Assembly (NCBI RefSeq): GCF_009914755.1 | Contig: NC_060940.1 | Source of the DNA: the human T2T-CHM13v2.0 reference genome, Homo sapiens | Length of the DNA stretch: 64,000 nucleotides | Direction: 5' to 3' (one strand) | Shown: one piece after another, positions 9,816 through 50,193 of the stretch | Position numbering within the stretch: the first letter of the stretch is position 1 | Layout: each line of letters opens with the position of its first letter | Program-made: the position numbers and the translations under genes | Notes under the pieces: model-generated | Databases searched by the model: none | Told to the model about the DNA's origin: nothing | The model's input: the letters and a program-made list of their open reading frames with translations, nothing else

Positions 9816-10120
<305 letters not shown>

Positions 10121-11743: not shown

Positions 11744-12095
<352 letters not shown>

Positions 12096-13037
12096 CTAGA
12101 TGCTCACAGGTACGCTTTACTAAGCAACGTTACCTCCACTGTGAAATGGGAATACTCATAACCATAAAATAATAATAATAATAATGATACCACCACCATA
12201 GTGGTTGTTTAGGAACACCATGTTATGTACTTCATTTAATGTGTTTGGTGGCACCTAGTGAGGGTTCATGGAGTGTTAGCTATTCTGAGAATTACAACAA
12301 ATAATAACAACCTTCAGATAAATCCCAAGTCTTATCTAAGAATGACCTTTCCAAACTTATCAAGCTGTTGTAGCTTCTCTCTGGAAAAAGTGGCTGTTGA
12401 GCCCAGACCACACAAAGACAAAAAGCTAGTCAGACTTAGAGCAGGAGTAGCGCAGGACGTTCAATGAAAACACAGGATTGGTTGTGATAACACCGTGTGG
12501 GATGGCACCAAAGAGAATCACAGGCAAACGATAAACAGAAACTCAGGGACAGAATATGTGGAGAGTTAGTGAACCCTGCATCAGAAGCTAACGTCTTAAG
12601 CTGCTGGGCTTCCCACCACTGCTAATGAGGCTACAGAAACACCTGCACCAGCAGATCTCAGCTGAACATTCATAGATGAGCAAAAGCAAGTCCCCAGGTA
12701 TAAACCACATATCCTAGGACGGACTTCATCCAAGGTATTGAGGATCTCAGATCTTGGTTAATGTGGCCATTATTTATGGAGCTCACGCTAAATGTCAAGA
12801 AACGGGAAGGAATAAAAAGGAGGGACAAATGACACACAGTCCCCACCTTTGGGAGCTCATGGGAAAGACAGAGATGTCAACAGTCATCCTTGAGGAGAGC
12901 TCTATGGGGGCACAGATAGAAGAGCAATGAGCTGTGTGGCCAGGAAAGCAGGGAAACAGTCCAAGTGGACCTCAGATAAGTCAGGACAACTAAAGAGCAT
13001 GGGGAGAAGGGTTTGGGGAGGAGTGTGTACTCAGTAG

Positions 13038-13487
<450 letters not shown>

Positions 13488-14329
13488 TGATTGCAGTGTA
13501 TGAAAATCGGCCTTGTGTTTGGCACCAACTTGGTGCCTTGCAATCTACTAGGACCTTTATATACTGTGGCTGATGGATCCATTCATTAATGAAGCAATTG
13601 CTTGGGAGTTAAAACTCACTACCCTGCTGAGATCTGAAACACATGTGGAAAAAAGCCAGGTATAGGGATTGTACACGTAGGATACTCTGTGTGGTGACCT
13701 TCAATAACATGTAAAACTCAACCATGGAAACAGAGACAAGAACAAGGCTTGCTGGGGCAGAAGGGTGAAGGTGAATCTCAAAGGGGACAAGGAACTTTTT
13801 GGATGATGGAAATGTTCACTATCTTCCTTAGGGTAGTGCTTATGTGCAGGTGTAGACGTTTGCCAAAACCCACTGATTTGTACTCTTAAGATGGGTGTGT
13901 GGCACAGTGTAAATTTTTACCTCCATTTAACAAAGTAACTGTGGCATGAAAATCACAAGATGCAGAACACATATGGAGTGTACGGTGCCACTTAGAAAAA
14001 ATGAAAGGCAATGTTTTTCTTAACACGTACGCTCACACTCACACTCAGGGAAAAGCATCTGGGGTTTCTGAGCAGCTGTCCTGGTGGCTGGGTGGCAGGT
14101 GCTGCATGTGGCACAGAGGAAAGTCACTAATGCAGAGGGAGAGGGCGCCAACCCTGAGGGTGGGAAGGTGTGGGGATGAGCAGAGGCCCATGAGCACCAG
14201 TCTGGCCCTAGTGACGCCCCAGGCCAGGCCTGTGCATTGCCAGGCAGCATCCTACCCTTTGTGACCCTCTGAGTAGGCGCTGCCTAGCAACGCCTCATTG
14301 TGAATGTCTGTTTTAAAGACAGGGCCTCC

Positions 14330-14640
14330 GCCAGGCGCGGTGGCTCATGCCTGTAATCCCAGTACTTTGGGAGGCCAAGGTGAGTGGATCACGAGGTTGG
14401 GAGTTCAAGACCAGCCTGGCCAACACAGTGAAACCCCGTCTCTACTAAAACTACAAAAATTAGCCGGGCATGGTGGCACATGCCTGTAGTTCCAGCTACT
14501 CGGGGGGTGAGGCAGGAGAATCGCTTGAACCCGGGAGGCAGAGGTTGCAGTGAGCCGCGATTGCACTACTGTACTCCAGCTTGGGCAACAGAGAGTGAGA
14601 CTTTGTCTCAGTTAAAAAAAAAAAAAAATTTAAAAAAAAG
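14330..14640 (+). mobile_element. Alu with 15-bp TSD aaagacagggcctcc, about 80 bp upstream of the TRIP11-like ATG
   Basis: Identical TSDs at 14315-14329 and 14637-14651. Confidence 0.92.
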
Positions 14641-14733
14641 ACAGGGCCTCCCTGACTTGCCCAGACTGGACGCGAATCCCAGTGCACTGGATGCTTTTCA
14701 CGAAGGACAGCAGATCAGTTCTAAGATCCACCA

Positions 14734-17892
<3,159 letters not shown>

Positions 17893-18739
17893 TCACACTA
17901 TGGTTGCTTCTTGTGAGGCTGGGTGTTGGCCAGACTGAGGTTGTGTTTGAGGGATAGTTGAAGTAGTTTTATAATGCTTTCAGTGTTTTATAAGGAGCAG
18001 GTACTTTTGTATGCCTTCGGTAATTAAAATATTCATGTGTGTTAAGGATCAAATATTGTAAAATACACGAGTGTATAGTTGGTATATAAGAAAAACAGAT
18101 GAACAGCAGAAAAGCATAAGTTGCATAAAAATTAAAAAATTTAAAGTTCAGCATGAAGTGACTCACACCTATAATTCCAGCACTTTGGGAGGCTGAGGGG
18201 GATGGATAGCTTGAGCTCAGGATTTCAAGAACAACCTGCACAACATGAAGAAACCCTGTTTCCAAAAAAAAAAAAAAAATAGAAAAATTAGCTAGGTGTG
18301 CTGGTGGGCACCTGTAGTCCCAGTTACTCAGGAGGCTGAGGTGGGAAGGTCAAATGAGGCTGGGAGGTCTGGGTTGCCATGAGCCATGATCACAACACTG
18401 CAATCCAGCCTGGGCAACACGGTGACAGCCTGTCTCAAGAAACAAAGAAAAAAAAAGTAGAAGTTCTGTTTTTTGGCTATGTCCTACTCTTTTCCATTTC
18501 CCAGAAAACTATTATTGATCTGTATTTTTTCCAGATCTTTTAAAAATATGTGCATGTCTGTATTAATGATAGTATATTATTCTCTGATATGCTTTCTAAA
18601 AAAAAATCACTACACTTTGGAGATCTCTTAAAATGTGAATGACTCCATTTTATTCCTTTTAAAAGTAGAATTTCTTCCTATAGATATCCTCCAATTCATT
18701 TCAACAGCTCCTATTCATCAGCGTGTAAGCAGTTTGTGC

Positions 18740-20350
<1,611 letters not shown>

Positions 20351-20456
20351 CTTTTTATCCTTGCTCTTTACTAAGGACCTACAGACTGGTCTCCCCTCAG
20401 CCACATCTGACAGTTTCTTTCTTTCTTTTTTTTTTTTTTTTTTCTCATTTTTTTGA

Positions 20457-20564
<108 letters not shown>

Positions 20565-21408
20565 TGAGACTACAGGCATATGCCACTATGCCTGACTAAT
20601 TTTTGTATTTTTAGTAGAGACAAGGTTTCACCATGTTGCCCAGACTGGTCTTGAACTCCTGGCCTCAAGTGAACTGCCCACCTCAGCCTCCCAAAGTGCT
20701 GGGGGATTACAGGCGTGCCACCATGCCAGGCCTGAAAATTTACTGACAGGTTCTTAATAGACATTTGTTGACTGGAATTGGTAATTGAATAATTCAATTC
20801 ATAACTAAACAATTCCATAACAATTAAATAAACAAATGACACATACAGAAAACACATATAAAGAAATACAAATATAAGGACACATTCATTTCCACCTTAA
20901 TGAAAAAAATTTAAATAGCTAGCAAATTTTTAAAACATACGTAAGCAACTAAGGTGGTGGCAAAAGGCGATACTCATCACGTCGTGTATAATGACATGCA
21001 TTATAGTGCAGCATCGCTTTCTGGAGAATAAATTAAATGATAGCATTATCATCTTAGGAAATTTGGAATTACTGTCAAAAATAAATATTAATTTCCTATA
21101 AATGTAGGAATTCTAAACTCTACAGAATTCATTGGAAAAAAATAATTTAGGATAGAACAGATATAATCGTAACAATGGTGACTACCACATCAGACAGAAG
21201 TGACAGCTAGATGACAAAAGGGATAAATCCAGCTCAAACCAGCAAAGCCAGCTGGATGACAATTATGAGTGCAGGTGAGAAACAATGAGCACCTGATGAA
21301 GGTAACAGGAAGGACAGCCACAGAGAAGGAGAGACCGAGTCAAAAGATAACCAAGGAGGTAGCACGGCCAGATCACAGTAATAGCCAGGGTATAGAAGAC
21401 AGAGGAGA

Positions 21409-21756
<348 letters not shown>

Positions 21757-22323
21757 TCAATACCCTAGGGCAGGGGTCAGAATACTTCTTATTAAGGGCC
21801 AGAGAGTAAATACTATAGGACCTGTGAGTTGTATGGATCACTATTCCAACTAGGCAACCCTGTTGCTGTAGTGTGTGGCTGTGTTCCAATAAACCTTTTG
21901 TATAAAACATGCAATGGGCTGGATTTACCCTGCAGGCCAAAGTTTGGTGCCTTATGGACTAGGGGACAGGGGGAAATGAAGCCAATTTGAGGATGAAGTT
22001 CATGGGTTCAATTTCATTTTATTTTGAATTTTTTTTATAATAAAATGAAAGAATGGAGATGAAATCTCCCTCTGTTGCTCAGGCTGGTTTTGAACTCCTG
22101 GGCTCAAGCGATTGCCCCGCCTATGAGTTCAAGTTTAGCAGGTCATGTCAGCAGAGACATTCAAGACGGAGATGGCAGCATCACTCTAGGGATGAAGAGA
22201 TGCCAGCACTGGAAGCATAAAACAGAGTCATCAATCATGAGGTGACAGTTATGGAGCTGAGATGACCCAGGGAAAAGATCTCAAAAGAGAGGACACGAAG
22301 GACATCTTTCTGTCCCAATATAA

Positions 22324-22707
<384 letters not shown>

Positions 22708-22741
22708 TACAATCTAACCTTTTTAAACTCCTACTTTTACT

Positions 22742-22752
22742 ATATCTATATC

Positions 22753-22800
<48 letters not shown>

Positions 22801-22818
22801 CCTATCTATCTATCTATA
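22742..22818. repeat. (TCTA)n tetranucleotide microsatellite
   Basis: Directly visible tandem TCTA units with one CCTA interruption. Confidence 0.95.
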
Positions 22819-23085
22819 GAGAGAGGTGGGGTCTCGCTATATTGACCAGGCTAGTCTCAAACTCCTGGCCTCAAGTGATCCTCCCATCTTGGCCTCCCAG
22901 CATGCTAGGATTACAGGCATGAGCCACAGTGCCTGGCCACTAAACTACTTTTAAGGAGGGCTCCCATTTTTAAAGTGGGGCTTTCATTCCCTTTTCCAAG
23001 ATAAAAAAATTTAAAGTTTCAAATTTGTAGATAAGAAGGAAACTTCCCACTGGCCAGAAAATGAGGCAGGTCTAAAATAAAGTGA

Positions 23086-23346
<261 letters not shown>

Positions 23347-23958
23347 TGATCCACCCAACTTGGCCTGTCTAGGTTTTTTTATTATGAAATATTTTATACA
23401 CAAAAACCATACAGCATATATATGGGGTGTAATGAATAATTACAAAATATATGTATCCATCCACATCTCAAGAAGTAATTCATTACCAACAACACTGACA
23501 ACTTTTCATACCATCGGCATTAATCTGCAAATCAGAAGTAAAGCAGGCAGCCTGCAGCCAGATAAAACCTGCAGATTATGTTTTATTTGGCTAATACAGT
23601 GAGTTTCTTTTTTCTTTTTGGTTGCCAATATTTAAATATCAAGAAACTTCACATGGAATTCAGCATTCTGGAGTATCATTAAAAATGGAAGATGAGGCTT
23701 CACTACTCCCACATTCACCATGACAATACGTGGCCATGTTCCCCTTTGAATGAACACGTACTCACCGGTTCACTACAGTCCCCCCATTCCCTACTGTCCT
23801 ATACCCGCCTCCCACTTATTTATTTTACTGGCCCTTGCACTTGAGTTTGTGACCCCTGCTTATACAATATAACTGTGGTTTCCAACCTTTTGGAATATGG
23901 AAAATATTCTTTAAAGTAAAAAAATTTCACAGACTCTCAATAGGTACTTATACTAAGA

Positions 23959-24280
23959 CAGGTCCACAATCCCTATCTACCATTTTGAAATCCAAAAAGC
24001 TCTACAAAATAAGTTTTTTTTGTAACTTATTTGGCAACAAAAGTTGACCTGAGTCGACATGAAGCTATGTATAATCTTTACGCATCCATGAAGTGTGAAA
24101 ATATTCATACATTTTGCTATAGTAACAATAATATGTTTGACTATCGGGTGTTGTCCCAGAGCCCAGAGCATTATATAACCACATCATACGTGCATTATTA
24201 CTTTTAGAAAAATCTGAAACAATCTGAATTCTGAAAGTTATCTGACCCCAAAACTTCCAGATAAGAGACTGTGACTCTAT
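23959..24280. mobile_element. TcMar-Tigger non-autonomous element (MER46C-like)
   Basis: Imperfect terminal inverted repeats 'caggtccacaatccctatct' / 'agataagagactgtgactc'. Confidence 0.55.
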
Positions 24281-24304
24281 TGTACTTTTAATATCTAACT
24301 TTAA

Positions 24305-24688
<384 letters not shown>

Positions 24689-25955
24689 TGAGAAAGGGAA
24701 ATAGAATGATATAGGCAAAACATCCTGTTGTCTGACAAAAACATGTAAACTACATAATAAGGCCATGAAAGCTTAGATCGAAAAGAAGCTGCAATGACAC
24801 AGGATTTCTTTCCACCCCTGCTCTATGCAGAGGTTGATGGAATCCACTCAGACTGAAGCAAAGCGCACATTACCTACCCCTTCTCAGAAATACTGTTCAG
24901 AGTTCCCCTAGAAAAGGCAGAGTGAAGATCAGTGGGAGGAAAAGGACACAGTGGAGTGGGTGAGGGATGCAGAATGTTACTGCTGGCAACGTAAGGATAA
25001 GGTTTGTGATCATCAAATATAGGTAGGGCTGACTCGAGGAAGTGAGATGAGATTCATTCAATGCAGCAGCAGGGGACTGTTCTGGGACCAGCAGGTAGAG
25101 ACGCATTTTGACTCTGAGAATTCAGCGAGGTAGTGGGTCCTCGACTCCTGGAGAAGGTCATTAGATCTCTGTAATGAGAATTTACAGCTGTTTCAGAATG
25201 AGAAACCTGGGTTTAGGTCCATAGCTCTGTCATTTACTAGCTCGATGACCCCTTTAATCGCTGGCATCCTCTGTTAAATCAGGAATAAATAACATCACGT
25301 CTGAGGCTTGTTGTGAGAAAGGAGTGAGATAAATGTATGCAAAGCACCTAGCCCTGCACCTTCATAAGCACAGATGTTTAATAAACATTCATCCTTCCCT
25401 GGTGAAGAGGCAGCCCAGTTCCTGTACTCAAAATGACATGAGAGCCACCATTTAGAAGCACTGATACAGCCGGGTGCGGTGGCTCACGCTTATAATCCTA
25501 GCACTTTTGGAGGCCAAGGCGGGCGGATCACAAGGTCAGGAGATCAAGACCATCCTGGCTAACACAGTTAAACCCCGTCTCTACTAAAAATACAAAAAAT
25601 TATCCGGGCGTGGTGGCGGGCGCCTATAGTCCCAGCTACTCGGGAGGCTGAGGCAGGAGAATGCAACCTGGCACGCAGAGCCTGCAGTGAGCCAAGATCT
25701 CACCACTGCACTCCAGCCTGGGCGACAGACTCCATCTCCAAAAAAAAACAAAAAAACAAAAAACCCTGATTCAAGTTTCGCCTCAACCACTTAGTAGCTA
25801 TCTAATTTGGCAAGTTACGTTTTCTTCTTTCTAAGAAAGAAGTGATCATTGTCAGTAGGTGAGAACCAAGCCAGGAGGTTTAGCACAGCACTTTGTAAAC
25901 CAAACCACCATAGAAATGTTGATGAGTATTACTATTATACCTTTTAAAGATTTCA

Positions 25956-26360
<405 letters not shown>

Positions 26361-26932
26361 TTACAGGGAAAAATAAAATAACAGGAACTGTTAATTTCTG
26401 AGTCCTTCCAGACAAGCAGTTGCCAACCGGTGACCCACATATTTTGTTTAGTTCCATGGAGTGTAAGGGTAGTTGCTTAATGCAGATTTCAGGCCCTTCT
26501 TGAAAATTACAAAGGTGGTCCACACCGGGCCTAGAGCCACTTTGGTAGGTCCTGGTCCTCCAGGTCCCGTGAGATCCTCATCTGGCCCAAGTCACTGATT
26601 TTACTAGGTTGGCCCTCTAGGAGTTTGTGTTTATATCCTTGGCTTTCTAAAAACAACCATCTGGAAAAGCAGTTGGACCTCCAGAGGAAACTTCGATCAC
26701 TGAAGAAATCAATACCGCCTGACACACTCCCCACCAGAGCCTAGGCACTATGCTCTCTTAGTTATGTTCCTCAAATTCCTTCTGTTTGACACTTTCTCCT
26801 CATACCTTCAAGCTCCTCATCCCAGTGTATTCTTTTCTCCCTATTTGGGTTATCACTTCTCCCAAAATACCAACTGTATCCACCGGATTATCTGCATCTA
26901 AGGGTTTTTAAGAAACAGTAACTTATCTTTTA

Positions 26933-27227
<295 letters not shown>

Positions 27228-28149
27228 AGTAACTTATCTTTTTTCAGCAGGACTACGAACGAAAGGCCCACCATGACCTTTATTGCTTGCCTGATTACCA
27301 TCCATTCTCCCTGCCTGCTGGTGACAGTGCCCAAGTTTACCTTAGGGAACCAGCACTCCTCCACCTCAGTCCATATGGCTTGAGTGGTGCTCACTCAAGT
27401 CCATTTCTGGGGAAAGGTATAGGACCCAGAATAATTCAGAGCCGATCCTGGTACTCTGTCACAGTGACTGGGAGAAGAGTTTTCTTTCTCTCTGGGACTC
27501 GGAAGACTGGGAACTCTCCCAGTGGACTGTCTCTCTTTGGACCTGCCCAAAGAGTGAAACCCCTGGATGTAGCCAAATCTGCAGCCACACTACTCTTGGA
27601 CTCTTGTGATTACTTAGGAGACAACTAATTCCTATCTTTGCTTGAAGAAGTTTTAGGTTTTCTTTATGGCCAAGAGACCTAATCAATACAAGTAGTATTT
27701 GAAAGCAGTGTTTAAAGACGGATGACAAAGTCTCTGCTCAGATTTTTCATCTCTGGGTAGCTTTTGTTACCTCCCTCCATCTAATGACAGCTAGGTTTTG
27801 TTCAGTGCATTAGCTATCCCTCCATAAGCACACATCTTCCGTATATAAATTATTTTTGTTTGCCTATGTTTCTTTTCAAGCATTCAAGCAGTACCAAAGG
27901 AACATGGAGAAGTAGCTGTCTCCAAATCCAAGAGGAAGAAGACTTTTTAAACTGGCACAAGGTGTCTCCCAGTTCTAAATTTCTAAATGTCAAGAACTTG
28001 CAGCAGCAGTCAAGTTCCTAGGAATACTGGTTTCTGAGACTGCACCACCTCCGAATTCCCTCGCAGGCGTTCTGAAATTCACTAAGCAAATCCGACTGGC
28101 TTTCATATATCCCTTTATTTCTTGCTACCATGCACTTAAAGGACTCCCA

Positions 28150-28870
28150 ACAGCGGGTCAACCCGGAAAGTCTGACAATGCTGCCCCCCACAGCACAGCG
28201 CTCGGCACAGCGTTAGGGACAGAAGTCATCGGAGTTTTAGCACAGGGCAGCGGTCCCAGGCTGGCTGTGTCCTCCGGAAGAGAGGAGAAGCATCGGGTGT
28301 AGTCCTCGCAGGGCAATGCTCGCCGGGGTAGGGACAATGGGCAGGGGGCACCCGAGGGGTTGCTACAGAGGAGGCAGCGGCCCGTCCCAGATGGTCGCCA
28401 AGGACCAGGGGGCGATTGAGCGGCAGCGGGCGTCCCGCTGGCCTCGGGCTGGGCTGTGGTTCGGTCCAGAGCCGACCGGCCCATAGTCAGGTCGGCCACC
28501 TGCTGATGAGGTTGAACTGCTTCTTCAAGGCAGCGGCGGCGGCAGCCCGCGGGGCGCCGCCTGGCAGGTAGGGCTACACCCAGACGGCTCCTACATGGTT
28601 CACAGCTGAGGTGACCGGTGGCTGCGACGGCTGCTGTAGCTACCCGGGCCATTGACCTCGCTCTCTCGCGTCACTTCCGGCGCGCCGTCCACCCGCCCTC
28701 TTGGCCGACCGTTCGGGGCCGAGGCCAGTCGAGCCGAGTCCAGCTGGACCGATCGGAGCCGAGCCCAGACGAGCCCGATCTGGCAAAGATCGCGAGGACC
28801 AGGGCGCAGAGCAAAGTGGCCTCTGCGTGACTTTGCCCCAGCCCTTGGTACCTCAGGTTCAGCGACGCCA
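28150..28870 (-). promoter_or_regulatory. Second CpG island / probable promoter with an ETS-CRE composite motif
   Basis: CpG-dense; TCTCGCGTCACTTCCGG at about 28664-28680 (minus strand CCGGAAGTGACGCGAGA) combines GABPA/ETS, half-CRE and TCTCGCG elements; GC box CCCGCCC at about 28692. Confidence 0.75.
28477..28528 (-). pseudogene. Decayed duplicate of ARHGAP17 (RICH1) coding exon 1
   Basis: Minus strand: gccgccgccgctgcc TTG AAG AAG CAG TTC AAC CTC ATC -AG CAG GTG GCC GAC CTG ACT ATG GGC CG|gtcggc, i.e. (L)KKQFNLI-QVADLTMGR versus recalled ARHGAP17 MKKQFNRMKQLANQTVGR. 52 nt versus the expected 53; ATG>TTG and a 1-nt deletion. Confidence 0.8.
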
Positions 28871-29952
28871 TCCACCTGCCCTCTGGCAGATGGTGGCTGA
28901 GAGGTCCTTGAAACAGGCAGAACATATTAGCTATAATAGTCAAATATTTACCACATTGAAATTTAGTGGGATTCTCGTGTATTTTAAGGGTCCCCTCCAC
29001 TCTTCCAAATTCCAAGTCACGTGGTTTTCGTCTCCATCAGATCACTCGTGGTGTGGATCTTCAGGGAAGTTATGGGGAAAGGGAGACCAGCAGCCTGCCC
29101 CGTGGGTGGCCATCCTCCTCCCCACGGGAGTGCCAGGCAATCTCCCCAGTGCTGGGGTCCTCTCCTGGTAAGTTCATTTTGTTTAGGGTCCAGCTGGGGC
29201 CATTGAACCCCTTGACCAAATATGCAAGCAACACTGCGAAGCAAAGCCCAGGGTTGTCAGTTTGGGGTTTTCCATCGAGAGAGAAGTTGAACAACAAATG
29301 CCATTCCCTGTCCATTTTATTTTTTTCATCATCAGTGACTAGGCCACTGACTGCCAGGGATGTGCATTTCTTAGGGGTCAGAAGAACAGAGAGCAGCAGC
29401 AGCGCAACAGTGCCACAGGAAACATCACTACCCTTGCTAGAACAATTACTGTTAGGACACAGGCAGGGAGCCATTCCTAAATCTTCCTGGGGTGATGGGT
29501 GATGGTCTCCTTCCTTGCCACAAACAACATAAAGGATTGTTCCCATGACTGTGCTGGGGGCACACTTTCCTAACAGTGTCTCTATGGCTGTCCCAAGCAG
29601 CTAGTGATGGTCACAAGGCTAGACGCAGTGACCAAAGAGTTCTAATCTGAACATCAGTGAGTAGAACTCAAGCACCCACTGGTTAGGATGTTGTGTTGCT
29701 GCTGCCCCCAGGTGGGAGCCTCAGAGACCACGTGATGGACACACAGGCCACACCTGATGGCACCTACCAAGTTCAAGTGTGGCAAAAAAGAGAGCTCTGC
29801 TAATAAACTGAGCAACTTCCATTCAACTCCTGGGATTCATTCTGATTGGAACAACCTGGTTAGCCCTTCCCCCAATCCCCACCACCCTCTGAAGCATGAC
29901 AAGGTGATTTTGGGTGCCAATTGGCCAGACCTTGGCAAGTTTCCACCCCTAG

Positions 29953-31021
<1,069 letters not shown>

Positions 31022-31871
31022 TAACTTTTGGCCCACAATATTAATGTCCAAGAGCTTTTACACTTCCACAACTCTTCTCCTGACTTTGTCAAAAGATGCA
31101 GTCTAGTTGGCAGTGAACTTTCTCTGGCTGGGATATGGCTCAAAGACTACCCCAGCATTGTCTCTTGCATTAAGGTATCATTTAGCCTGAGATGGCTAAG
31201 CTTGCAATCTCCAGACTCCACGCTGTCATAAACTTTCAGATCCTCAACCAGGAACTTACATGGAATGAGCTGGCCCTGGAGGTCAGCTGGAAGATGGCCA
31301 AATTCCTCTGAATCACCAGCTATTTTGAATCAAAGGCTCATCCAACAACAAAAGTGTATAAACCCATCTGCCTCCGCCTTCTTCCAGTCACCCCCAGTCT
31401 CACTGTCCAGACCTGTGGGATTAACACCGTATAGTACTTGCTGTTAACACTTACTATCCACTAACACCCGTGGAATGTGGACACTGCTAAGCTGGGAGAT
31501 GATGCTTGTGCAATAGTTTGTATTACCCTTTTGGCAAAGGACCACTCCAAGAAAATGGTGTATTTTATCCCATCAGCATTCCCCCTGGCAAAGCTCTCCA
31601 CCCTTAGTCATTCCCCTCTTGTCATTTCTACTGTGGCTATCAATGAGATCTTGTGCCTCCATTAGAATACTGAGCTAGCATTTGATATTTGACCTCACTC
31701 CAAGGTGTGTATTCTGGGTTTCTGTTGTTGATTTTCTTTTTAAAAAAATGAGTGCAATTCAAAGTTCTTAAAGTATATCTGTTTCCTGCTTCCAACAACT
31801 GACAGATAACAAAATGGAATATACAAAGACATTTTTAATTTATAATGTATATTAAACATTATTATACATAT

Positions 31872-32007
31872 ACAACTTACAAGGGTTGCTTCTGGCTGGA
31901 TTCTCTGCCAATCGCCCGAACACTGAGGATTCTGCTAGTTGTTCTGCCCTGAGTTAATTATAGCTATAAAATTTCATCACCAGCAAGAAACCAGGCGACT
32001 TCCCCAG
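31872..32007 (+). repeat. Direct duplicate of the LCMT1 promoter-proximal segment 32916-33054
   Basis: Shared text gttgcttctggctggattctctgcc...tgaggattctgctag...gccctgagttaattatagctataaaatttc. Confidence 0.92.
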
Positions 32008-32474
32008 TACATCTTGAATTTATACATATATTTTGTACTAGATTTAGTACAAAATAAATCCAAAACATCTTGAATATGCCTCATAATGAAACAGACACAC
32101 GTGAACCCACTCCCACGTGAGAAACTGAGGATGTGTCTATGTGCTCCTTCCCTGCCTCTCCCTCCCCCTCTTGTGTGCTACCCTCCCGGCTCCCTAAAGA
32201 TCACCAATATCCTGATTCTTTTTTATTTTTTTTTCTCATGTCTTGCCTTCTCTGTACAGTATTTTACCATATATGTACGTTTCTCTAAACAACATTAGTT
32301 TTACTTGGTTTGAACTTTACAAAAGTGTTGTTAGACTTCCTTCTTTCACTGAACATCGTGTTTCTGAGATTCAGCCATTGATGCTGCTACCTGGTAGCTC
32401 TAGTTCATTTATGATCGCTGCTACATGGCTTCCTATTGTATTACTTTTCCACACACTACTTCCCTCACTACATT

Positions 32475-32797
32475 TCTTTTCTTTCTTTCTTTTATTTATT
32501 TGTTTATTTATTTTTTTGAGACGGAGTCTCGCTCTGTCGCTCAGGACGGAATGCAGTGGCGCCACATGGGCTTACTGCAACCTCCGCCTCCCGGGTTCAA
32601 GCGATTCTCCTGCCTCAGCCTCCTGAGTAGCCAGGACTAAGGCGGCCGCCACCACGCCCGGCTAATTTTTGTACTTTTAGTAACAACGGTGTTTCACCAT
32701 GTTGGCCAGGCTGGTCTCGAACTCCTGACCTCAGGTGATCGGCCCGCCTCGGCTTCCCACAGTGGTGGGATTACAGGAGTGAGCCACTACGCCCGCC
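32475..32797 (-). mobile_element. CpG-rich Alu bordering the LCMT1 promoter
   Basis: Full minus-strand dimer with many CpGs retained; TSD ccctcactacattt. Confidence 0.9.
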
Positions 32798-32999
32798 CCC
32801 CTCACTACATTTCGAAGGCAATTTTGGGGGCAAAGCCCTCAGCACAGTCGCTGGCAGAGTCAGCACACAACAAAATTTTGTAAAATTGAATGACACTGAG
32901 CCCGGACTGAATGTAACAACTTACACATGTTGCTTCTGGCTGGATTCTCTGCCCTTTGCCCGAACGCTGAGGATTCTGCTAGCTGTTCCGCCCTGAGTT

Positions 33000-33680
<681 letters not shown>

Positions 33681-34392
33681 CTTCATTTATTTAACGAATC
33701 GTTTCTGAGCTTTTGCTGTGAGCCAGGCAGGGGGCCAGCCTGGGTATCGTCGATGGGAGCAGGCCCCTGAGCCAGACAGACGAGGCCTTGGGCTTCTTGG
33801 AGCTAAACGCTGCTGGAAAGACAGACATGAAGCAAATAGTAGCTCCAGCCTCGATGGGTTACGAGGATGAGAGGTGTAGGTTCTCTCTCTTTTGTAGGTT
33901 GCATTCTTTAGGGGGTTGGTGTGATCCCTGTTGTGCACCTGAAACTCAGGATGACGAGGGGAAATAACCCACCCAGAGCCAAGTAATATCTCTTTGCAGA
34001 GCCAGTACCGCACTAAGTCTCCACTGTTAAGGGTGTGGTGGTGGGGATGGGGGCGTAGCCAGCAGAGGTACGTGTCAGAGAAAGAGAAAGCTTGAGGCTT
34101 GAATGTCCACCATTTATTCTTTCATTCAACAAAATTTTTTGAGACCTTACTTTGTGCCAGGCCTTTACTTTGCAGTGGTTAGTAGGAATTCGATGGTGGA
34201 AATACACCAAGAACAAGACAGACATGGTGTCAGACATACTGGAACTCACAGCTTTGTTGGAAAAGAGAGACAGGAAGCAAATAATTACCTATGAAATATA
34301 TAATTATGATTTTTTTGTGTTGAGTGCTGACAAATACGGCAGTGCCATTAGAGTTTGTAATTTTGTCAGTGATGTTTAAGGTGAGAAGAGTT

Positions 34393-34842
<450 letters not shown>

Positions 34843-35624
34843 TTAAACCTTGCACTTTTTATAGGTTCTTGGGGACTAAACTTTCAGAGCATGGATTCTG
34901 GAGCTAGACTCTGTCAAACTGAGCGTTGCCACTTACTGGCAGTATAAAGTCGGGGAAATTACTAAACTTTTCTGTGGCTCAGTTTCCTGATCTGTAAAAT
35001 GGGGAGTATAATAACGCATCATAGGTGGGTGTGGACAAAAATGATATTTAATATTAGTAGAGCACTTGGAGCAGTGTCTGGCATGTAGTCCATGTAAGTG
35101 GTGATTGATTAAATTAATAAATACACAAGTATTAAAGTCTTAGAGAGAGTCCCTTATGAAATTTGTGAATTTGAGTGGATTATACTCAGCTTTTTCTTCT
35201 GTGGCTTTCAGTTGCTATTGGCCACAGCTGTCTTGGCTCCTGGTAACTTCCACCTGCCGGGTTCAAGTGATTCTCCTGCCTCAACCTTCCAAGTAGCTGG
35301 GATCACAGGCACACACCACCATGCCCAGCTAATTTTTGCATTTTTAGTGGAGACAGGGCTTCACCACGTTGGCCAGGCTAGTTTCGAACTCCTGAACTCA
35401 AGTGATCCGCTCGCCTTGGTCTCCCAAAGTGCTGGGATTACAGGCATGAGCCACCCCACCCAGCCTAGTCTTTTCATTTTTAAAACAGTGATAATAAAGG
35501 TAACCTTTATGGGTGTCAGGATTAAATGAGATTATCGATGCAGAGGATCTGACACAAAGTGAAGCCCTCAGTAAATTATTATTGCTAGTTTTGACTTCCC
35601 TCCAGGCTGAATATTGTTTAGTTA

Positions 35625-35765
35625 AAGTTGCTGAATGTGCAGTAGCTATGAGTTAGGGTGGTTCCTGCTGCCCTGAGTGAGTTATAGCTATAAAATAAAA
35701 AGCCAGTCAGCCTTCTGGGTACCTGTAAATCTTTTACTTCTGTTTAGTTTGCTTCTTCCTTTGGT
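35625..35765 (+). repeat. Third, more diverged copy of the promoter segment
   Basis: gccctgagtgagttatagctataaaat (35670-35696) plus colinear ctgtttagttt...ttcct, as at 33110-33119. Confidence 0.7.
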
Positions 35766-36029
35766 ATAGAGTCCTTCTGCGGATAAGTAGGATGTTATCT
35801 GTCTCAGAGGATTGCTGTGCAGGTGAAATGTGGAGTGCTTGCAGCAGTGCTTGGCATACTGGAGGTGTTCAGAATTGGTAGTTAACAGTCATCACCACCC
35901 CCCTCATTGTCATCAAATCATTATCATCATTGTGATCCTGGACTTGTGGTATCAGAAGTTTTCTGGCTGGATATATTAGGTTTACACTAACTCCATTTGA
36001 CTCAATAGGTATCAATTGAGCACTTTTCA

Positions 36030-38130
<2,101 letters not shown>

Positions 38131-41100
38131 TGGAGGAGGTGTTAAAGAGATAAACTGGTAATCCTAGCACTTGGAGAAGCCAAGCGGATCACTTGAGCTC
38201 AGGAGTTCAAGACCAGCCTGGGCAACATGGAGAAACCTCCTCTCCACAAAAAAAAAAAAAAAAAATACAAAAAATTAACCAGTGTCGCGGTGCATGCCAG
38301 TAGTCCCATCTACTTTGGGGCTGGTGTGGGAGATCACTTGAGCCCAGGAGGTCGAGGCTGCAGTGAGCTGAGATTGTGCCACTGCACTGCAGCCTGAGTG
38401 ACAAAATGAGATCCTGTCTCAGAAAACAAAAAAAAGAGATAAACCAGAAACTGGGGTTTGCCAGGCAGAAGACAGTAGCAGGAGCAGAGGCATGGAGACT
38501 GGAGTAGAGTGGTGTATTAGGTGAACTTGACAGAGAGTAGGGAGTGGGTAGCAGGTTAGAATTTAGAAAGCTGCTCAGGCAGTGAATCGTGGAAGGTCCC
38601 AAGGAGTATGGGTTTTATCCTAAGGGATTTTGAGTGCAGAACTGATATGATCTTGGTTTGTGTTTTAGAAAAATTCCTAGCAGCTGTGTGGGAGAAGGGT
38701 TGGTGACACAAGGGACATCTTCCTCTCTTTTCCACAACCATAGCCCTTGCTTGGCTCTCCTGACTCACCTGATCTGTTGCAGTGCACTCTTACCTGCTGG
38801 CCAGGGTGATTGTCAGGATCGCAAATCTTATTCTGTCACTCACCTAAAAACCTTTTGATTCCCCATCAGCTGCAAGGTAAACATCTGCACTTTGTTGTGT
38901 GACATATATACTGTACCTTTTCATGATCTGCTCACTCTAGCCTGATAGGCCGCCGGCTGGACATCTCCACTTGGATGTCCCAGTATTACCTCCAGTTCAC
39001 TATTTCCAAAACTGCTTCATATCAGCTCCTCGTGTTCTCCCTGCCATTCCCAACCTGAAACTCAGTGAATGGTGCCATGGTTTATTCAGTTCACAAGTTA
39101 AGGCCTGGTGCGGTGGCTCACACCTGTAATCCCAGCACTTTCGGAGCCGAGATGGGTGGATCACCTGAGGTCAGAAGTTTGAGACCAACCTGGCCAACAT
39201 GGTGAAACCCCATCTCTACTAAAAATACAAAAATTAGCTGGGCGTGGTGGTGTGCGCCTGTAATCTCAGCTATTGGGAGGCTGAGATGGGAGAATCGCTT
39301 GAACTGGGGAAGTAGAGGTTGCAGAGTACTGGGATCGTGCTACTGCATTCCGGCCTGGGCGACAGAGAGAGACTCCGTCTCAAAAAAAAAAAAAAAAATT
39401 TGACATCATCTTGGAACTGCCCCTTTATTTTCCCTCTTGTGCAGTCACCCAGACCTGTTAACTTTTATCTGCTAAGTATTTAGGGGATGAGGGAATTATT
39501 TGGCTAAGTAAGGAAAGGAATCAACTTTCCTTAACCTCTGTTTCTGCCGTCTGTGATCTGAACTATGGTACTAGTCTCCCAAATGGGCTCTCCCGATCTC
39601 TGTTACCTCCCCGAAATCTGTATCTCACACTGAAGCCAGAGGTTTGTAAAAGGCCCATTTGATCTTGTCACTCCCTAGCTTAATGGCCTCCTGTTGCCAT
39701 TAGAAAAAGACCAGCATTTCTTACGTGGGCTATAGGGCCCAGCCTGCTCTGTGTACTTCCCCAGCCTCACTTCATACCACACTTCCCTCCCCCGTCACCG
39801 CCATCCTTTCAGTTCATCTAATATGCCCCATTTCTTCCATCCTCGGGGCCCTGGAGCATGCCATTCCCTCTGCCTGGAACGCTTCCTCCACCCTCCCTTG
39901 CCTGCTTAGTTCCACATTATCTCCTAGGTGAGTGCATTCACTCCACATTCTTTGTTGAGCGCCTGCTTCAGTTATGGAGGTGCTGTCCTAGACCCTGCCA
40001 ATGCAGAAGTGAGCCAAACACAGGATGCAGCTCTTATGGAGCATTGGTTCCTGGAGTGGGGGTGGGTAGGGAATAGCCAGGAAACAAATCAGCACAATAT
40101 GTGTCGTGTGAGATGGTGGGAGATGCAGTGGGTGTGTTGGAAGGAGTTGTCATCTGAGATGGGGTGGCTAGGGAAGGCCTCACTGAGGTCAGTGCAGAGG
40201 AAAGGCTTGCAGGGGGCAGGAGTGAGCCCTCTGGGTGTCTGGGGAAGCAATGTCCAGCAGAGAGAAGCAGGAGAGTAGAAAGGTCCTGAGGCAGGAGCCG
40301 GCCTGACCTGTTCCAGGAGCACCAAGACTAGGGTGAGGGATGGGGATGAGTGCAGGATAGATCTCGGAGAGCATGGGTGCAGGAGGCGGGGGCAGATGCT
40401 GCAGGTCACTCGAGGGAGGCTCTTGTAAGGACCCGACTTTTCCTCTCAGTGGGGTGGGAGCTGTTGGAGCATTTGGAACTGAAGAGTGAGGTGGTCTCAC
40501 TTGGTTTTAATAGCATTGCTTCAGCCTCTGTTAGGAGCAGACTGCAGAGTTAAGGACGGAGGCAGGATCAGTTAGTCGGCTGTGGGGGTGTCCCCTGTGA
40601 GACAGGCTGGTGCTTGGATCAGGATAGTGGTGATGGAGGTGCTGAGAATGTATCAGATTCTGGGTGCATTTTGAAGGTGGAGTTGATAGAATGTTCTGGC
40701 AGAGTGGATGTGGGGCAAGACTGAGGGGCCCAAGATGACTCCAAGGTTTTTGGCTTAGCTCAAATGTGGCTCACTCCAAGAGGCCTCTCTGACACTCACA
40801 GACAAGATCTAGCTTCTGTTAAATATTCTCGTAACACCCTGTTCATCTTCTTGGTGGTCATCGGCCCAGTTGTAATTTAGAAAGTGCCTAGTGTTCATCT
40901 CTGCCACTGGAATAGACGCGATACTGAGCACAGACCATTCCTACCTTTGCGCCACATGAGCTGTATTTGTCAGCTTGGCCACAGTGACGGGAACTGAGCG
41001 CACATGTTCAAGATTGTATTTCCTGATGAGGTCTTAACGTTCTGGTTTTCTATTTTACTGACTTTTAGTGGTCTATGTGTTCTAGAAAGCAGACCGGGGC

Positions 41101-41408
41101 TTATAAGGCTGAAATTTCATTGTGAAAATTATAGAACTTAATCTCATTTTCAGCTGCATGGAAAAATGTTCTCCCCTTTAGCAGGTCACAAGGTCTCTCC
41201 ACAAAGCCAAGTTTTTCCTCACGGCTTAGCCCAGGGCCTTTCCGGCATCCTGATGACATCTTCTTAGCTATGCCCCAGAGAGTAAGGTCGAGATTGTGAT
41301 CTGAAATATTTTCAAGGCAGGTGCTGCTTTCCATCCCCAGAGAAGACATGCCACTTCAGAGCTAGAACATTCTGTTAAACATAAATTAGCTGTAAAACTT
41401 GTCTATCA

Positions 41409-42999
<1,591 letters not shown>

Positions 43000-43041
43000 T
43001 TAATCACAGAAGAGTGAGTTCTTTTTTCTCCCCTTAATGGC

Positions 43042-43399
43042 TGTATTAGTTTGTTCTCATACTGCTATGAAGAAATACCTGAGACTGGGTAATTTATAAA
43101 GGAAAAAGGTTTAATTGACTCAGTTCCCATTGCTGGAGAGGCCTCAGGAAACTTAGTCATGGCGGAAGGCAAAGGAGAAGCAGGTACCTTCTTCAGAGGG
43201 TGGCAGGGTGGAGTGAGTGCTAGGAGGGGAAATGCCAGTCGCTTGTAAAACCATCAGATCTCATGACATGAGAACAGCATGGGGGAAACAGCCCCCATGA
43301 TCCAGTTACCTCCACTTGGTCCTGCTTTTGACATGTAGGGATTATGGGGATTACAATTCAAGGTGAGATTTTGGGTGAGGACACAGCCAAACCATATCA
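43042..43399 (-). mobile_element. MSTA/THE1-type MaLR solo LTR
   Basis: tgtattagtttgttctc...gagactgggtaatttataaag...acacagccaaaccatatca (TG...CA termini). Confidence 0.85.
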
Positions 43400-43849
43400 G
43401 TGGCATAGTAGGAGCATATTGTCCATGTCATTTCACAGAGATCTGCCTCATTGTTTTTAATGGCTGCACAGTGTTCTGCAGTTTCGTACTTTGGCCACTC
43501 TTCTGTTGTTCATCATTTAGGTGGCTCTGGTTTTTGCTCTGAAAATAGTGTTGTGATCAGCATTTTTGCACATGTGTGTGAATTTTCTTGTGAAATAGAT
43601 TCCCAGGGAGAAGTTTCTGCAAAATGCTTCTTGAAAGAGGTTATATCAGTTGTACCTACCCATGGTGAATGCAATGCTAATTATTCAGTAGTCTGTCTCT
43701 TTCCTTGTTTACCAGCTGCTGGGTAGAAAATAGGCTGTCTCTTTAATTTCTATCCTATAATCACTCATGAGGCTGAGCACTTAAAATCTGCTCATTGTCA
43801 CTGATATTTCTTATGTGAATCCTCTCTCCTGATGATGATGATGATTATT

Positions 43850-45475
<1,626 letters not shown>

Positions 45476-47078: not shown

Positions 47079-47444
<366 letters not shown>

Positions 47445-49876: not shown

Positions 49877-50089
<213 letters not shown>

Positions 50090-50193
50090 TGACCATCTCC
50101 CTCCCCAACAGCACCTCATCAGCTACCTGAGGTTTTAGGGGTTCATTCTTGAAGGAAGTCGTGGTGTGCTCCCTTTCCAGCTGTGCGCAAAAG

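What the first reader, a model, noticed from the sequence alone, without database searches (positions are those of the whole stretch)
28150..28870. Orphan CpG island is a ghost of ARHGAP17 exon 1 and promoter, head-to-head with LCMT1
Seen: on the minus strand a (GCC)n leader precedes TTG AAG AAG CAG TTC AAC..., giving KKQFN...Q.A..T.GR and then a GT at the phase-2 position expected for ARHGAP17 exon 1. The start codon is mutated and one base is deleted, yet CpGs and an ETS-CRE motif persist. Known (recall): ARHGAP17 is the minus-strand neighbour upstream of LCMT1. Inference: the divergent ARHGAP17/LCMT1 5' unit was duplicated; this copy kept LCMT1 and lost ARHGAP17 coding, but the promoter stayed unmethylated and probably drives a minus-strand lncRNA or acts as an LCMT1 enhancer 4.7 kb away.
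Basis: partly seen in the sequence, partly recalled or inferred. Interest (0 to 1): 0.75.

Follow-up and report, generated by a model that had tools for sequence, protein, structure and literature searches.

The report
Ghost ARHGAP17 promoter beside LCMT1
An isolated CpG island 4.6 kb upstream of human LCMT1 is a decayed duplicate of the ARHGAP17 promoter and first exon, left by an old duplication, and a retrocopy on chromosome 2 shows that it once made a spliced RNA.

Summary
Window 28201-28900 is a CpG island (60 CpG, o/e 0.76). On its minus strand lie a GCC-rich leader, TTG AAG AAG CAG TTC AAC, a 1-base deletion, a GT at the exon-1 end and CCGGAAGTGACG.

It is a DNA-level paralog of true ARHGAP17 exon 1 and promoter, 91.6 kb upstream. 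The homology continues collinearly through about 8 kb of ARHGAP17 intron 1 on one side and about 22 kb of the LCMT1 5' region on the other. The reciprocal dead product is LCMT1P1, an unprocessed copy of LCMT1 exons 1-2 beside true ARHGAP17.

Three things are new:
- A third, inverted copy of the ARHGAP17 core promoter sits at the start of LINC02175.
- A TSD-flanked chimeric retrocopy on chr2 joins ghost exon 1, exactly at the predicted GT, to an exon at window 17389-17222. It keeps the ATG and the intact frame. So the ghost promoter fired and its donor was used in the germline before the start codon died.
- CpGs in the island are kept better than in flanking DNA.

Paralog divergence is about 0.14-0.16 and every Alu checked is private, so the duplication is old (tens of millions of years).

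Present activity was not tested here. This is a well-documented new member of a known kind.

The parts
28201..28900 (.). Orphan CpG island: 700 bp, GC 0.67, CpG o/e 0.76, 60 CpG
   Evidence: It is not a multi-copy repeat: a whole-genome search with 28400-28880 gave 3 candidates, all scored. There is no Rfam match in 26000-31000.
28669..28680 (-). It is kept at the aligned position in all three ARHGAP17-promoter copies.
   Evidence: unique in the window, 0.07 expected; the true copy has CTGGAAGTGACG and the third copy has CCGGAAGTGACG.
28477..28642 (-). Ghost of ARHGAP17 exon 1. Position 28642 aligns with the RefSeq ARHGAP17 start. The chr2 retrocopy begins at about 28628. The exon ends at 28477.
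   Evidence: In one search the 53-nt coding part differs from the true exon by 10 substitutions and 1 deletion.
28526..28528 (-). Dead start codon TTG (ATG in true ARHGAP17 and in the chr2 retrocopy). The 1-base deletion lies 19-22 nt downstream, in ATGAAG > AT-CAG.
28475..28476 (-). GT donor at the phase-2 position. It was created by a deletion of the original GC donor region and was used in the fossil transcript.
   Evidence: gaps of about 53 and 34 columns in the ghost after GGGCCGGT; the retrocopy junction ...ATGGGC(C/G)G|CCT... is reproduced without a gap.
20744..28388 (-). Paralog of the proximal part of ARHGAP17 intron 1 (chr16:25285231-25294603). LCMT1-AS1 exons 2 and 3 lie inside it.
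   Evidence: with the exon-1/promoter HSP, 17 collinear HSPs, 5410 aligned nt, p 0.16; non-CpG K2P 0.162.
17222..17389 (-). Second exon of the fossil ghost transcript (acceptor ttgccttgacAG|CC, donor CTCTGG|GTATGG). It lies beyond the end of the TRIP11-pseudogene annotation (14932-16702), inside the block that is paralogous to chr16:25298534-25307235.
   Evidence: 91.7% identity to chr2:195922149-195922281, against 82.7% for its chr16 paralog.
28969..51576 (+). LCMT1 upstream region, promoter, exon 1, intron 1, exon 2 and the start of intron 2. This is the functional copy of the duplicated LCMT1 5' block; its paralog at chr16:25309468-25340794 holds LCMT1P1.
   Evidence: 21 HSPs, 12074 aligned nt, p 0.138; non-CpG K2P 0.138.
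8879..13120 (-). Paralog of a distal part of ARHGAP17 intron 1 (chr16:25266934-25271788). At 85-94% identity it is younger or converted.
13741..20372 (.). Block holding the TRIP11 pseudogene LOC100421173. It is paralogous to chr16:25298534-25307235, which lies between true ARHGAP17 and LCMT1P1. Part of it is paralogous to an inverted piece at chr16:25352050-25352935.

Best explanation
The island is the inner, truncated copy of the ARHGAP17 5' end, left by an old DNA-level duplication of the head-to-head ARHGAP17/LCMT1 5' unit.

How the arrangement arose. The duplicated unit ran from inside ARHGAP17 intron 1 to LCMT1 intron 2. In such an arrangement the outer copies stay joined to their gene bodies: ARHGAP17 on the left and LCMT1 on the right. 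The two inner copies are dead ends: LCMT1P1, and this ghost of ARHGAP17 exon 1.

What happened to the ghost afterwards. It kept a working core promoter, made of a GC box and CCGGAAGTGACG about 25-40 nt upstream of the start site. It kept firing in the germline. Its first exon, then still carrying ATG and an open frame, was spliced from the GT at 28476 to a new exon at 17389-17222. One such RNA was retrocopied to chr2. Only later did the ATG become TTG and one base drop out.

Inferred, not shown. Transcription-factor occupancy has kept the island largely free of germline methylation. Today it most likely behaves as a weak unannotated promoter or promoter-like enhancer inside LCMT1-AS1 intron 1, 4.6 kb from LCMT1.
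For: Shown:
1. Collinear same-strand homology to ARHGAP17 intron 1, exon 1 and promoter, and to the LCMT1P1 block.
2. The exon-1 alignment, with ATG>TTG and a 1-base deletion.
3. LCMT1P1 begins at the exact paralog of the LCMT1 start. It keeps exon 1, intron 1 and an exon-2 copy.
4. ARHGAP17 exons 2 and 3 lie at about chr16:25258600 and at chr16:25256837-25256938. That is outside all duplicated blocks, and the window has no ghost of either.
5. The chr2 element:
   - 86-87% identical to ghost exon 1, against 77.5% to the true exon.
   - 91.7% identical to window 17351-17222.
   - The intron is removed exactly at GT/AG.
   - It carries the changes CTC, GTG, CTG and ATG found in the ghost but not in the true exon.
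   - It retains the ATG and the frame.
   - It has a poly(A) and the target-site duplication AGAATATTACA.

6. CpG density and retention:
   - All five duplicated promoter copies still have CpG o/e 0.72-0.82, against a background of 0.28.
   - CpGs shared between paralogs: 21 of 54 in the ARHGAP17 islands against 53 of 315 in non-island blocks. Fisher p = 7e-4.
7. The third promoter copy sits at the annotated start of LINC02175. So a copy of this promoter of roughly similar age is transcribed (plus the hub table).
8. The hub table lists RefSeq enhancer features at 28048-29049.
Against: - No present-day transcript starts at the ghost in the RefSeq table I was given.
- No expression, CAGE, chromatin or methylation data could be consulted.
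- Since retroposition, ghost exon 1 has changed as fast as its chr2 retrocopy: 7 against 7 private changes. The island is also among the more diverged blocks, with p 0.23 over 28476-28740. So there is no sign of sequence-level constraint.
- CpG retention in the ghost (21 of 41 true-copy CpGs) is lower than in the functional LCMT1 promoter (30 of 35).
- The chr2 copy also still has CpG o/e 0.59 over 150 nt. CpG density over such short stretches is therefore a soft indicator.
- The order and number of duplication events is unresolved.
Confidence: 0.85

Rival explanations
1. Inert relic. The island is a neutral leftover. Residual factor binding or its GC-rich composition keeps CpGs, but it has no transcript or enhancer role that matters today.
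For: - Private changes since retroposition are equal in ghost exon 1 and its chr2 retrocopy, 7 against 7.
- Divergence in the island core is high (p 0.23).
- The start codon and frame are lost.
- The hub table lists no RefSeq transcript starting there.
Against: - Island-level CpG density persists after K of about 0.16. CpG retention is 2-3 times that of flanking DNA.
- The 10-nt core GGAAGTGACG is invariant in all three copies.
- The hub table lists three RefSeq enhancer features.
- The sister copy drives LINC02175.
Confidence: 0.35
2. Maintained regulatory element. The ghost is kept by selection as an alternative promoter for a minus-strand lncRNA (for example an unannotated LCMT1-AS1 first exon) and/or as an LCMT1 enhancer.
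For: - The hub table's enhancer features.
- The conserved GC-box and CCGGAAGTGACG layout.
- The GT donor is intact, as are the downstream acceptors: 17390/17389, and LCMT1-AS1 exon 2 at 25168 per the hub table.
- CpG maintenance.
Against: No test of selection could be made, because no other primate genome is on hand. The substitution rate in exon 1 looks neutral.
Confidence: 0.35
3. Chance resemblance, or a relic of a paralog (ARHGAP44, SH3BP1) or of a repeat, rather than of ARHGAP17.
For: None found.
Against: - The homology extends collinearly over more than 8 kb of ARHGAP17 intron 1 and over the LCMT1P1 block.
- The genome-wide search with the island returned only itself, the chr2 retrocopy and true ARHGAP17 (3 candidates, 3 scored).
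Confidence: 0.01
4. All three copies arose in one complex event: direct, inverted, direct (a DUP-TRP/INV-DUP-like fold-back), rather than in successive duplications.
For: - The direct LCMT1P1-side copy ends at chr16:25340794 (= window 51576). The inverted copy begins at chr16:25340793 (= window 39783). The breakpoints abut.
- Three-way distances are inconsistent between segments.
Against: - In 4 of 4 LCMT1-intron-1 segments the inverted copy is closer to the proximal copy (84-91%) than to the window copy (77-86%).
- Its ARHGAP17-intron pieces are 76-91% identical to the proximal copy.
- Both points fit a later second event or gene conversion.
Confidence: 0.25

Closest known systems
LCMT1P1 (RefSeq transcribed pseudogene): the reciprocal product of the same duplication
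   Same: It is an unprocessed, truncated 5' copy (promoter, exon 1, intron) of one member of the ARHGAP17/LCMT1 pair. It retains a CpG island with o/e 0.72.
   Different: LCMT1P1 is annotated and transcribed and still has its ATG. The ARHGAP17 ghost is unannotated as a gene or pseudogene, has lost its ATG and frame, and carries only 53 nt of former coding sequence.
LINC02175 promoter (third, inverted ARHGAP17-promoter copy)
   Same: It has the same core: GC box and CCGGAAGTGACG, an exon-1 remnant, and a 700-bp island with 60 CpG.
   Different: It is inverted. It keeps the original AG|GCGAGT donor region and lost the ATG-proximal part. It has an annotated lncRNA starting 4 nt 3' of the motif. 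The ghost in the window has none.
Orphan CpG islands that mark unannotated promoters (concept recalled from the literature, not read here)
   Same: A CpG island away from any annotated start site, with promoter-type motifs.
   Different: Here the origin is explicit: a duplicated housekeeping-type promoter. Past promoter use is documented by a retrocopy.
Chimeric retrocopies made by LINE-1 template switching (PMC13174262 and PMC2104539; only the first lines of the abstracts in the search listing were seen)
   Same: The chr2 element is Alu + cellular RNA copy + repeat 3' end + poly(A) inside a single target-site duplication.
   Different: The middle part is a spliced lncRNA from a ghost promoter. 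The family of the 3' repeat was not determined. The junction lies within 2 nt of the exon-2 donor, so splicing into a repeat-derived exon is not excluded.
Segmental duplications as catalogued (at least 1 kb and at least 90% identity; threshold recalled)
   Same: An intrachromosomal duplication tens of kilobases long that creates partial gene copies.
   Different: Substitution identity is about 84-86% (70-82% with indels). That is below the usual threshold, so it would be absent from standard tracks. Only 8879-9814 reaches 94%.

Membership tests
Unprocessed (DNA-level) partial duplicate of ARHGAP17 | Homology extends beyond the exon into the promoter and intron, collinear with the parent | tested here: met
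   window 20744-28740 matches chr16:25285231-25295093 in 17 HSPs.
Unprocessed (DNA-level) partial duplicate of ARHGAP17 | Disabling changes relative to the parent | tested here: met
   ATG>TTG, a 1-base deletion, and a stop after 13 codons. Exons 2 and 3 are absent.
Unprocessed (DNA-level) partial duplicate of ARHGAP17 | Parent is ARHGAP17 rather than ARHGAP44 or SH3BP1 | tested here: met
   Intron and promoter homology is to chr16 ARHGAP17 only. The genome search found no other locus except the derived chr2 retrocopy.
CpG island (recalled criteria: at least 200 bp, GC at least 0.5, o/e at least 0.6) | Length, GC and o/e thresholds | tested here: met
   700 bp, GC 0.67, o/e 0.76.
CpG island, unmethylated in the germline | Direct methylation state | not testable with these tools
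   Indirect evidence only: CpG sharing of 21/54 against 53/315 in flanks, p = 7e-4.
Bidirectional promoter with LCMT1 (head-to-head starts less than 1 kb apart; definition recalled) | Distance below 1 kb between divergent start sites | tested here: not met
   The distance is 4.6 kb today. It is about 2 kb after removing insertions private to the window copy (gaps: 2102, 327 and 147 bp).
Active promoter of a minus-strand RNA | A transcript whose 5' end maps just downstream of the core motifs and whose first exon is spliced | tested here: inconclusive
   Met for the past: the retrocopy's 5' end is at about 28628 and the splice is 28477 to 17389. Present-day transcripts were not testable, and the hub's RefSeq table has none.
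Enhancer | Reporter or perturbation evidence | not testable with these tools
   The hub table lists RefSeq enhancer features at 28048-28549, 28550-29049 and 28554-28753. I could not see their assays or targets.
Processed retrocopy (the chr2 element, not the ghost) | Intron loss at splice sites, poly(A), target-site duplication | tested here: met
   Junction at CG|GT...AG|CC. Poly(A) at L018 about 6432-6440. AGAATATTACA on both sides.
Catalogued segmental duplication (at least 90% identity) | At least 90% identity over at least 1 kb | tested here: not met
   The A block has p 0.16 and the L block p 0.138, counting substitutions only.

The most novel reading that the evidence does not exclude
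The ARHGAP17 core promoter has been copied three times in this 100-kb interval. All three copies remain live, co-regulated ETS/CREB-type promoters: ARHGAP17, LINC02175 and this unannotated one. The ghost would be maintained because it feeds ARHGAP17-type regulatory input into LCMT1, as a promoter-like enhancer and/or as an alternative LCMT1-AS1 start. That would make the locus a dated natural experiment, with a retrocopy 'time stamp', on how a coding first exon turns into a lncRNA or enhancer element.
Probability: 0.25. Interest if true: 0.55.

Novelty: new member of a known kind. Interest (0 to 1): 0.4.

Why it matters
It explains an otherwise anonymous CpG island and set of RefSeq 'enhancers' next to LCMT1. 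It also ties four annotations to one old rearrangement of the ARHGAP17/LCMT1 head-to-head pair: LCMT1P1, LINC02175, the island, and part of the LCMT1-AS1 body.

The chr2 retrocopy is a rare fossil. It shows the state of a decaying first exon (ATG and frame intact, new donor in use) part-way through its decay. This gives an ordered series: coding exon 1, then the first exon of a spliced non-coding RNA, then an orphan CpG island.

Practically, it warns that reads, probes and motif-based promoter calls for ARHGAP17 exon 1 have two paralogous targets nearby. It also offers a clean target for CRISPRi tests of promoter-derived enhancers.

Tried and rejected
- **Shared Alus as an upper age bound.** Three candidates were examined (window 25448-25819, 21393-21706, 38158-38435). 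All proved to be independent insertions, either in opposite orientation or at different target sites with their own duplications. No shared Alu was found.
- **Branching order of the three copies.** Three-way alignments gave inconsistent closest pairs. The order is left open.
- **Locating ARHGAP17 exon 2 with a Pfam BAR (PF03114) scan of the genome.** There was only a weak hit to a later exon. I used an ARHGAP44 exon-3 peptide read from the genome and two recalled 5-residue motifs instead.
- **A local source for the 1.16-kb repeat that follows the ghost exons on chr2.** No match in chr16:25228001-25422000. ORF listing was uninformative. The repeat family is undetermined.
- **An AQP8 relic between ARHGAP17 and LCMT1,** prompted by the strepsirrhine AQP8_2 described in PMC13163493 (section 2.5 read). 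Of 3405 blastn hits, 0 were low-copy. The tblastx output was dominated by repeat-linked statistics and is not interpretable.
- **Structured RNA or tandem repeat as the nature of the island.** No Rfam match. TRF found only a 12-bp repeat of 2.5 copies at 28193-28222.
- **Earlier findings of this scan** were not open to the session.
- **Literature.** I searched 'LCMT1P1 / LINC02175 / LCMT1-AS1' (19 papers, of which I saw only the listing; by title and abstract mostly cancer lncRNA-signature studies, none about the locus's origin). I also searched 'ARHGAP17 + LCMT1 + segmental duplication' (2 papers), 'ARHGAP17 + LCMT1 + promoter' (3 papers), and 'orphan CpG islands + duplication + pseudogene + lncRNA' (6 papers). 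None describes this duplication or the ghost.
Full report
**1. The observation**

The finding's span (window 28150-28870) has GC 0.67, CpG o/e 0.78 and 63 CpG. A sliding scan puts an island at 28201-28900. The only comparable island in the window is the LCMT1 promoter at 33151-33700.

The minus strand reads GCTGCCGCCGCCGCTGCC, then TTG AAG AAG CAG TTC AAC CTC AT-C AGC AGG..
- The frame from TTG gives LKKQFNLISRWPT*.
- The frame after the missing base gives QQVADLTMGR.
- The true exon gives MKKQFNRMKQLANQTVGR.
- GT follows GGC CG at 28476-28475.
- CCGGAAGTGACG lies at 28680-28669 and is unique in the window (0.07 expected).
- The island is not a tandem repeat, has no Rfam match and is not a multi-copy repeat.

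**2. What it aligns to**

The hub places the window at chr16:25358001-25422000, with the ARHGAP17 start at window -63009, which is chr16:25294991 on the minus strand.

A whole-genome search with 27000-29500 returned 53 matches in all. Besides the window itself, only two were not Alu-type hits to the first 250 nt of the query:
- chr16:25294073-25294603 (79%, E 1.8e-115), equal to window 27868-28388.
- chr16:25294830-25295093 (71%, E 3.8e-22), equal to window 28476-28740.

Both are on the same strand. Reading that locus shows the true exon 1 with its (GCC)n leader, its ATG, and CTGGAAGTGACG about 28 nt upstream of the RefSeq start. The 53-nt coding part differs by 10 substitutions and one deletion.

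The first part is not met. The second part turned up something unexpected (section 5).

**3. Extent of the duplication**

I fetched chr16:25208001-25358000. I then compared it with the window by blastn and kept only low-copy HSPs (73 of 6318).

Collinear blocks on the same strand:
- Window 20744-28388 equals chr16:25285231-25294603 (ARHGAP17 intron 1, proximal part).
- Window 28476-28740 equals exon 1 and promoter.
- Window 28969-51576 equals chr16:25309468-25340794.

The last block carries the LCMT1 upstream region, promoter, exon 1, intron 1, exon 2 and the beginning of intron 2.

Its upstream paralog contains LCMT1P1. The annotated start of LCMT1P1 (chr16:25311354) aligns exactly with the LCMT1 NM_016309 start (window 33271). 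That paralog keeps the ATG. Its block also has an exon-2 copy with both splice sites.

ARHGAP17 exon 3 lies at chr16:25256837-25256938. I found it with the ARHGAP44 exon-3 peptide read from chr17 (E 4.6e-10); the best window hit had E 1.1. Exon 2 lies at about chr16:25258600 (from recalled 5-residue motifs). Both are left of every duplicated block, so only exon 1 was copied.

With an exon 1 that ends in GGC AG and an exon 2 that supplies the last base of the Arg codon, the true intron 1 has a GC donor, AG|GCGAGT.

After removing insertions private to the window copy, the ghost and the LCMT1 start are about 2 kb apart. This fits an ancestral head-to-head pair. Adjacency of lcmt1 and arhgap17 is reported for teleosts (PMC3525417, passages seen) and for primates (PMC13163493, section 2.5 read).

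**4. Age**

Substitution divergence:
- ARHGAP17-side block: p 0.16 over 5410 nt; non-CpG K2P 0.162.
- LCMT1-side block: p 0.138 over 12074 nt; non-CpG K2P 0.138.
- Block-to-block variation is strong, 0.04-0.29.

Each copy carries many private Alu-sized insertions, at least 10 in the 8-10-kb ARHGAP17 block. The three candidate shared Alus proved to be independent insertions.

With recalled neutral rates of 1.2-2.2e-9 per site per year, K of about 0.15 gives roughly 35-60 million years. This means early in anthropoid or primate history. It cannot be pinned down without outgroup genomes.

The identity is below the usual 90% threshold for catalogued segmental duplications.

**5. A fossil transcript on chr2**

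A genome search with only the island (28400-28880) returned three places: itself, true ARHGAP17 (71%), and chr2:195921972-195922123 at 86%.

Structure of the chr2 locus:
1. A full Alu with its A-tail.
2. A copy of ghost exon 1 from about window 28628 to 28477.
3. Joined to it without a gap, a copy of window 17389 to about 17222, minus strand. It is 91.7% identical to the window, against 82.7% to that segment's chr16 paralog.
4. A 1.16-kb high-copy repeat ending in poly(A).

The whole element is flanked by AGAATATTACA on both sides.

In the window, the junction corresponds to CG|GT at 28477/28476 and to ttgccttgacAG|CC at 17390/17389. An 11-kb intron was therefore removed at canonical sites.

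The copy carries CGC>CTC, CTG>GTG, CAG>CTG and GTG>ATG, the changes found in the ghost but not in the true exon. It still has the ATG and lacks the 1-base deletion.

Three conclusions follow:
- After the duplication, the ghost promoter was active in the germline. The RNA's 5' end lies about 40 nt downstream of the motif and about 14 nt from the position equivalent to the ARHGAP17 start.
- The start codon and frame were lost only afterwards.

Timing. Ghost against retrocopy gives p 0.12 and non-CpG K2P 0.09. In exon 1, 25 changes are shared against the true copy, and 7 are private to each. Retroposition therefore happened at roughly half the age of the duplication.

The single target-site duplication around Alu + RNA copy + repeat fits the chimeric retrocopies ascribed to LINE-1 template switching (PMC13174262 and PMC2104539; only the first lines of the abstracts in the search listing were seen). 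Because the last junction lies within 2 nt of the exon-2 donor, splicing into a repeat-derived exon is not excluded. No such repeat lies in chr16:25228001-25422000.

**6. A third copy**

Between the LCMT1P1 block and the window lies an inverted partial copy.
- chr16:25340793-25344163 equals window 39783-37511.
- chr16:25345614-25346337 equals window 29771-28872.
- Next comes a third ARHGAP17 promoter and exon-1 remnant, on the plus strand. It has CCGGAAGTGACG at L016 8472-8483 and ...GTGAAGCAGCTAGCCGACCAAGCC..AAG|GCGAGTGCC.
- Inverted pieces of distal ARHGAP17 intron 1 follow.

LINC02175 is annotated to start at chr16:25346487, which is 4 nt 3' of that motif. This copy is also a 700-bp island with 60 CpG.

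The direct copy ends at chr16:25340794 and the inverted copy starts at chr16:25340793. This suggests a fold-back junction.

The inverted copy is closer to the proximal copy than to the window copy in 4 of 4 LCMT1-intron-1 segments. It is closer to the window copy in the intergenic piece. Three-way distances disagree between segments. I therefore leave open whether this was one complex event or two events.

The block holding the TRIP11 pseudogene is also present in several copies, at different relative positions.

**7. CpG maintenance**

All five duplicated promoter copies keep island-level CpG, against a background of 0.28:

| Copy | CpG o/e |
|---|---|
| True ARHGAP17 | 0.82 |
| Ghost | 0.76 |
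| LINC02175 copy | 0.75 |
| LCMT1 | 0.79 |
| LCMT1P1 | 0.72 |

At aligned positions, the paralogs share (Fisher tests):
- 21 of 54 CpGs in the ARHGAP17 islands.
- 30 of 50 CpGs in the LCMT1 islands.
- 53 of 315 CpGs in non-island blocks.
- Fisher p = 7e-4 and p = 7e-10 for the two island classes against non-island blocks.

The ghost keeps 21 of 41 true-copy CpGs. Bulk DNA keeps about 0.28-0.30. Functional LCMT1 keeps 30 of 35.

This fits long-term, perhaps partial, protection from germline methylation. It is not a direct measurement.

Against any sequence-level constraint: the island core is among the more diverged blocks (p 0.23 over 28476-28740), and ghost exon 1 has changed as fast as its retrocopy.

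**8. How it most likely works now (inference)**

A GC box and an ETS/CRE-type composite site remain intact about 25-40 nt upstream of the former start site. Factors of that kind are broadly expressed; this comes from recall, and I identified no factor here.

Their occupancy would keep the island unmethylated. It would also give low-level divergent initiation, and/or promoter-like enhancer activity towards LCMT1 4.6 kb away, or towards LCMT1-AS1, in whose first intron the island lies.

The support is indirect. It consists of the CpG data, the three RefSeq enhancer features in the hub table, and the fact that the sister copy drives LINC02175.

I put about 0.35 on a role maintained by selection, about 0.35 on a biochemically active but dispensable relic, and the rest on a silent relic.

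**9. Known or new**

The kind is well known: a partial gene duplicate whose promoter survives as an orphan CpG island or lncRNA promoter. LCMT1P1's name shows that annotators recognised half of this duplication.

I found no paper that describes the duplication, the ARHGAP17 ghost, the origin of LINC02175 or the chr2 retrocopy. Supplements and subscription journals were not searched.

My verdict is a new, unusually well documented member of a known kind. Interest is moderate, 0.4.

Noticed in passing
L016 8280-8880 (chr16:25346280-25346880; window -11720..-11120): A third, inverted copy of the ARHGAP17 core promoter and an exon-1 remnant. The annotated LINC02175 start lies 4 nt 3' of its CCGGAAGTGACG motif. 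Downstream, the lncRNA runs through inverted paralogs of ARHGAP17 intron 1.
   Followed up: partly
L018 4678-6440 (chr2:195921678-195923440): A tripartite chimeric retrocopy inside one target-site duplication (AGAATATTACA). It consists of a full Alu, spliced ghost exons 1-2 with an intact 55-codon ORF (MKKQFNLMKQVANLTMG...), and a 1.16-kb high-copy repeat with poly(A). The repeat family was not determined.
   Followed up: partly
L011 6829-6830 (true ARHGAP17 exon 1 end) and window 50085-50086: Both parent genes use GC donors: ARHGAP17 intron 1 (AG|GCGAGT) and LCMT1 intron 2 (AG|GCAAGT). The dead paralogs have GT at these positions (the ghost through a deletion, the LCMT1P1-side exon-2 copy through a C>T difference).
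   Followed up: no
window 24740-25448 (LCMT1-AS1 exon 2 at 24878-25168): This is the best conserved stretch of the duplicated ARHGAP17 intron 1 (91% identity over 24740-24924; non-CpG K 0.07-0.10, against about 0.16 for the block). It overlaps an LCMT1-AS1 exon. It could be a conserved intronic element of ARHGAP17, or a converted tract.
   Followed up: no
L016 286-950 (chr16:25338286-25338950): A CpG-rich 450-bp stretch (GC 0.74, o/e 0.63), next to a 41-bp tandem repeat. It lies in a 2.2-kb insertion private to the LCMT1P1-side copy. It looks like an LTR12-type LTR by recall only.
   Followed up: no
window 8879-9814 and 3499-4903: Further pieces of ARHGAP17 intron 1 are copied into the left part of the window. 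Their divergence is much lower (94% for the direct piece, 82% for the inverted piece), which points to later duplications or gene conversion.
   Followed up: no
chr16:25343019-25343303 and chr16:25343876-25344163 (window -14981..-13837): A small internal palindrome (92% identity, inverted) within the inverted LCMT1-intron-1 copy.
   Followed up: no
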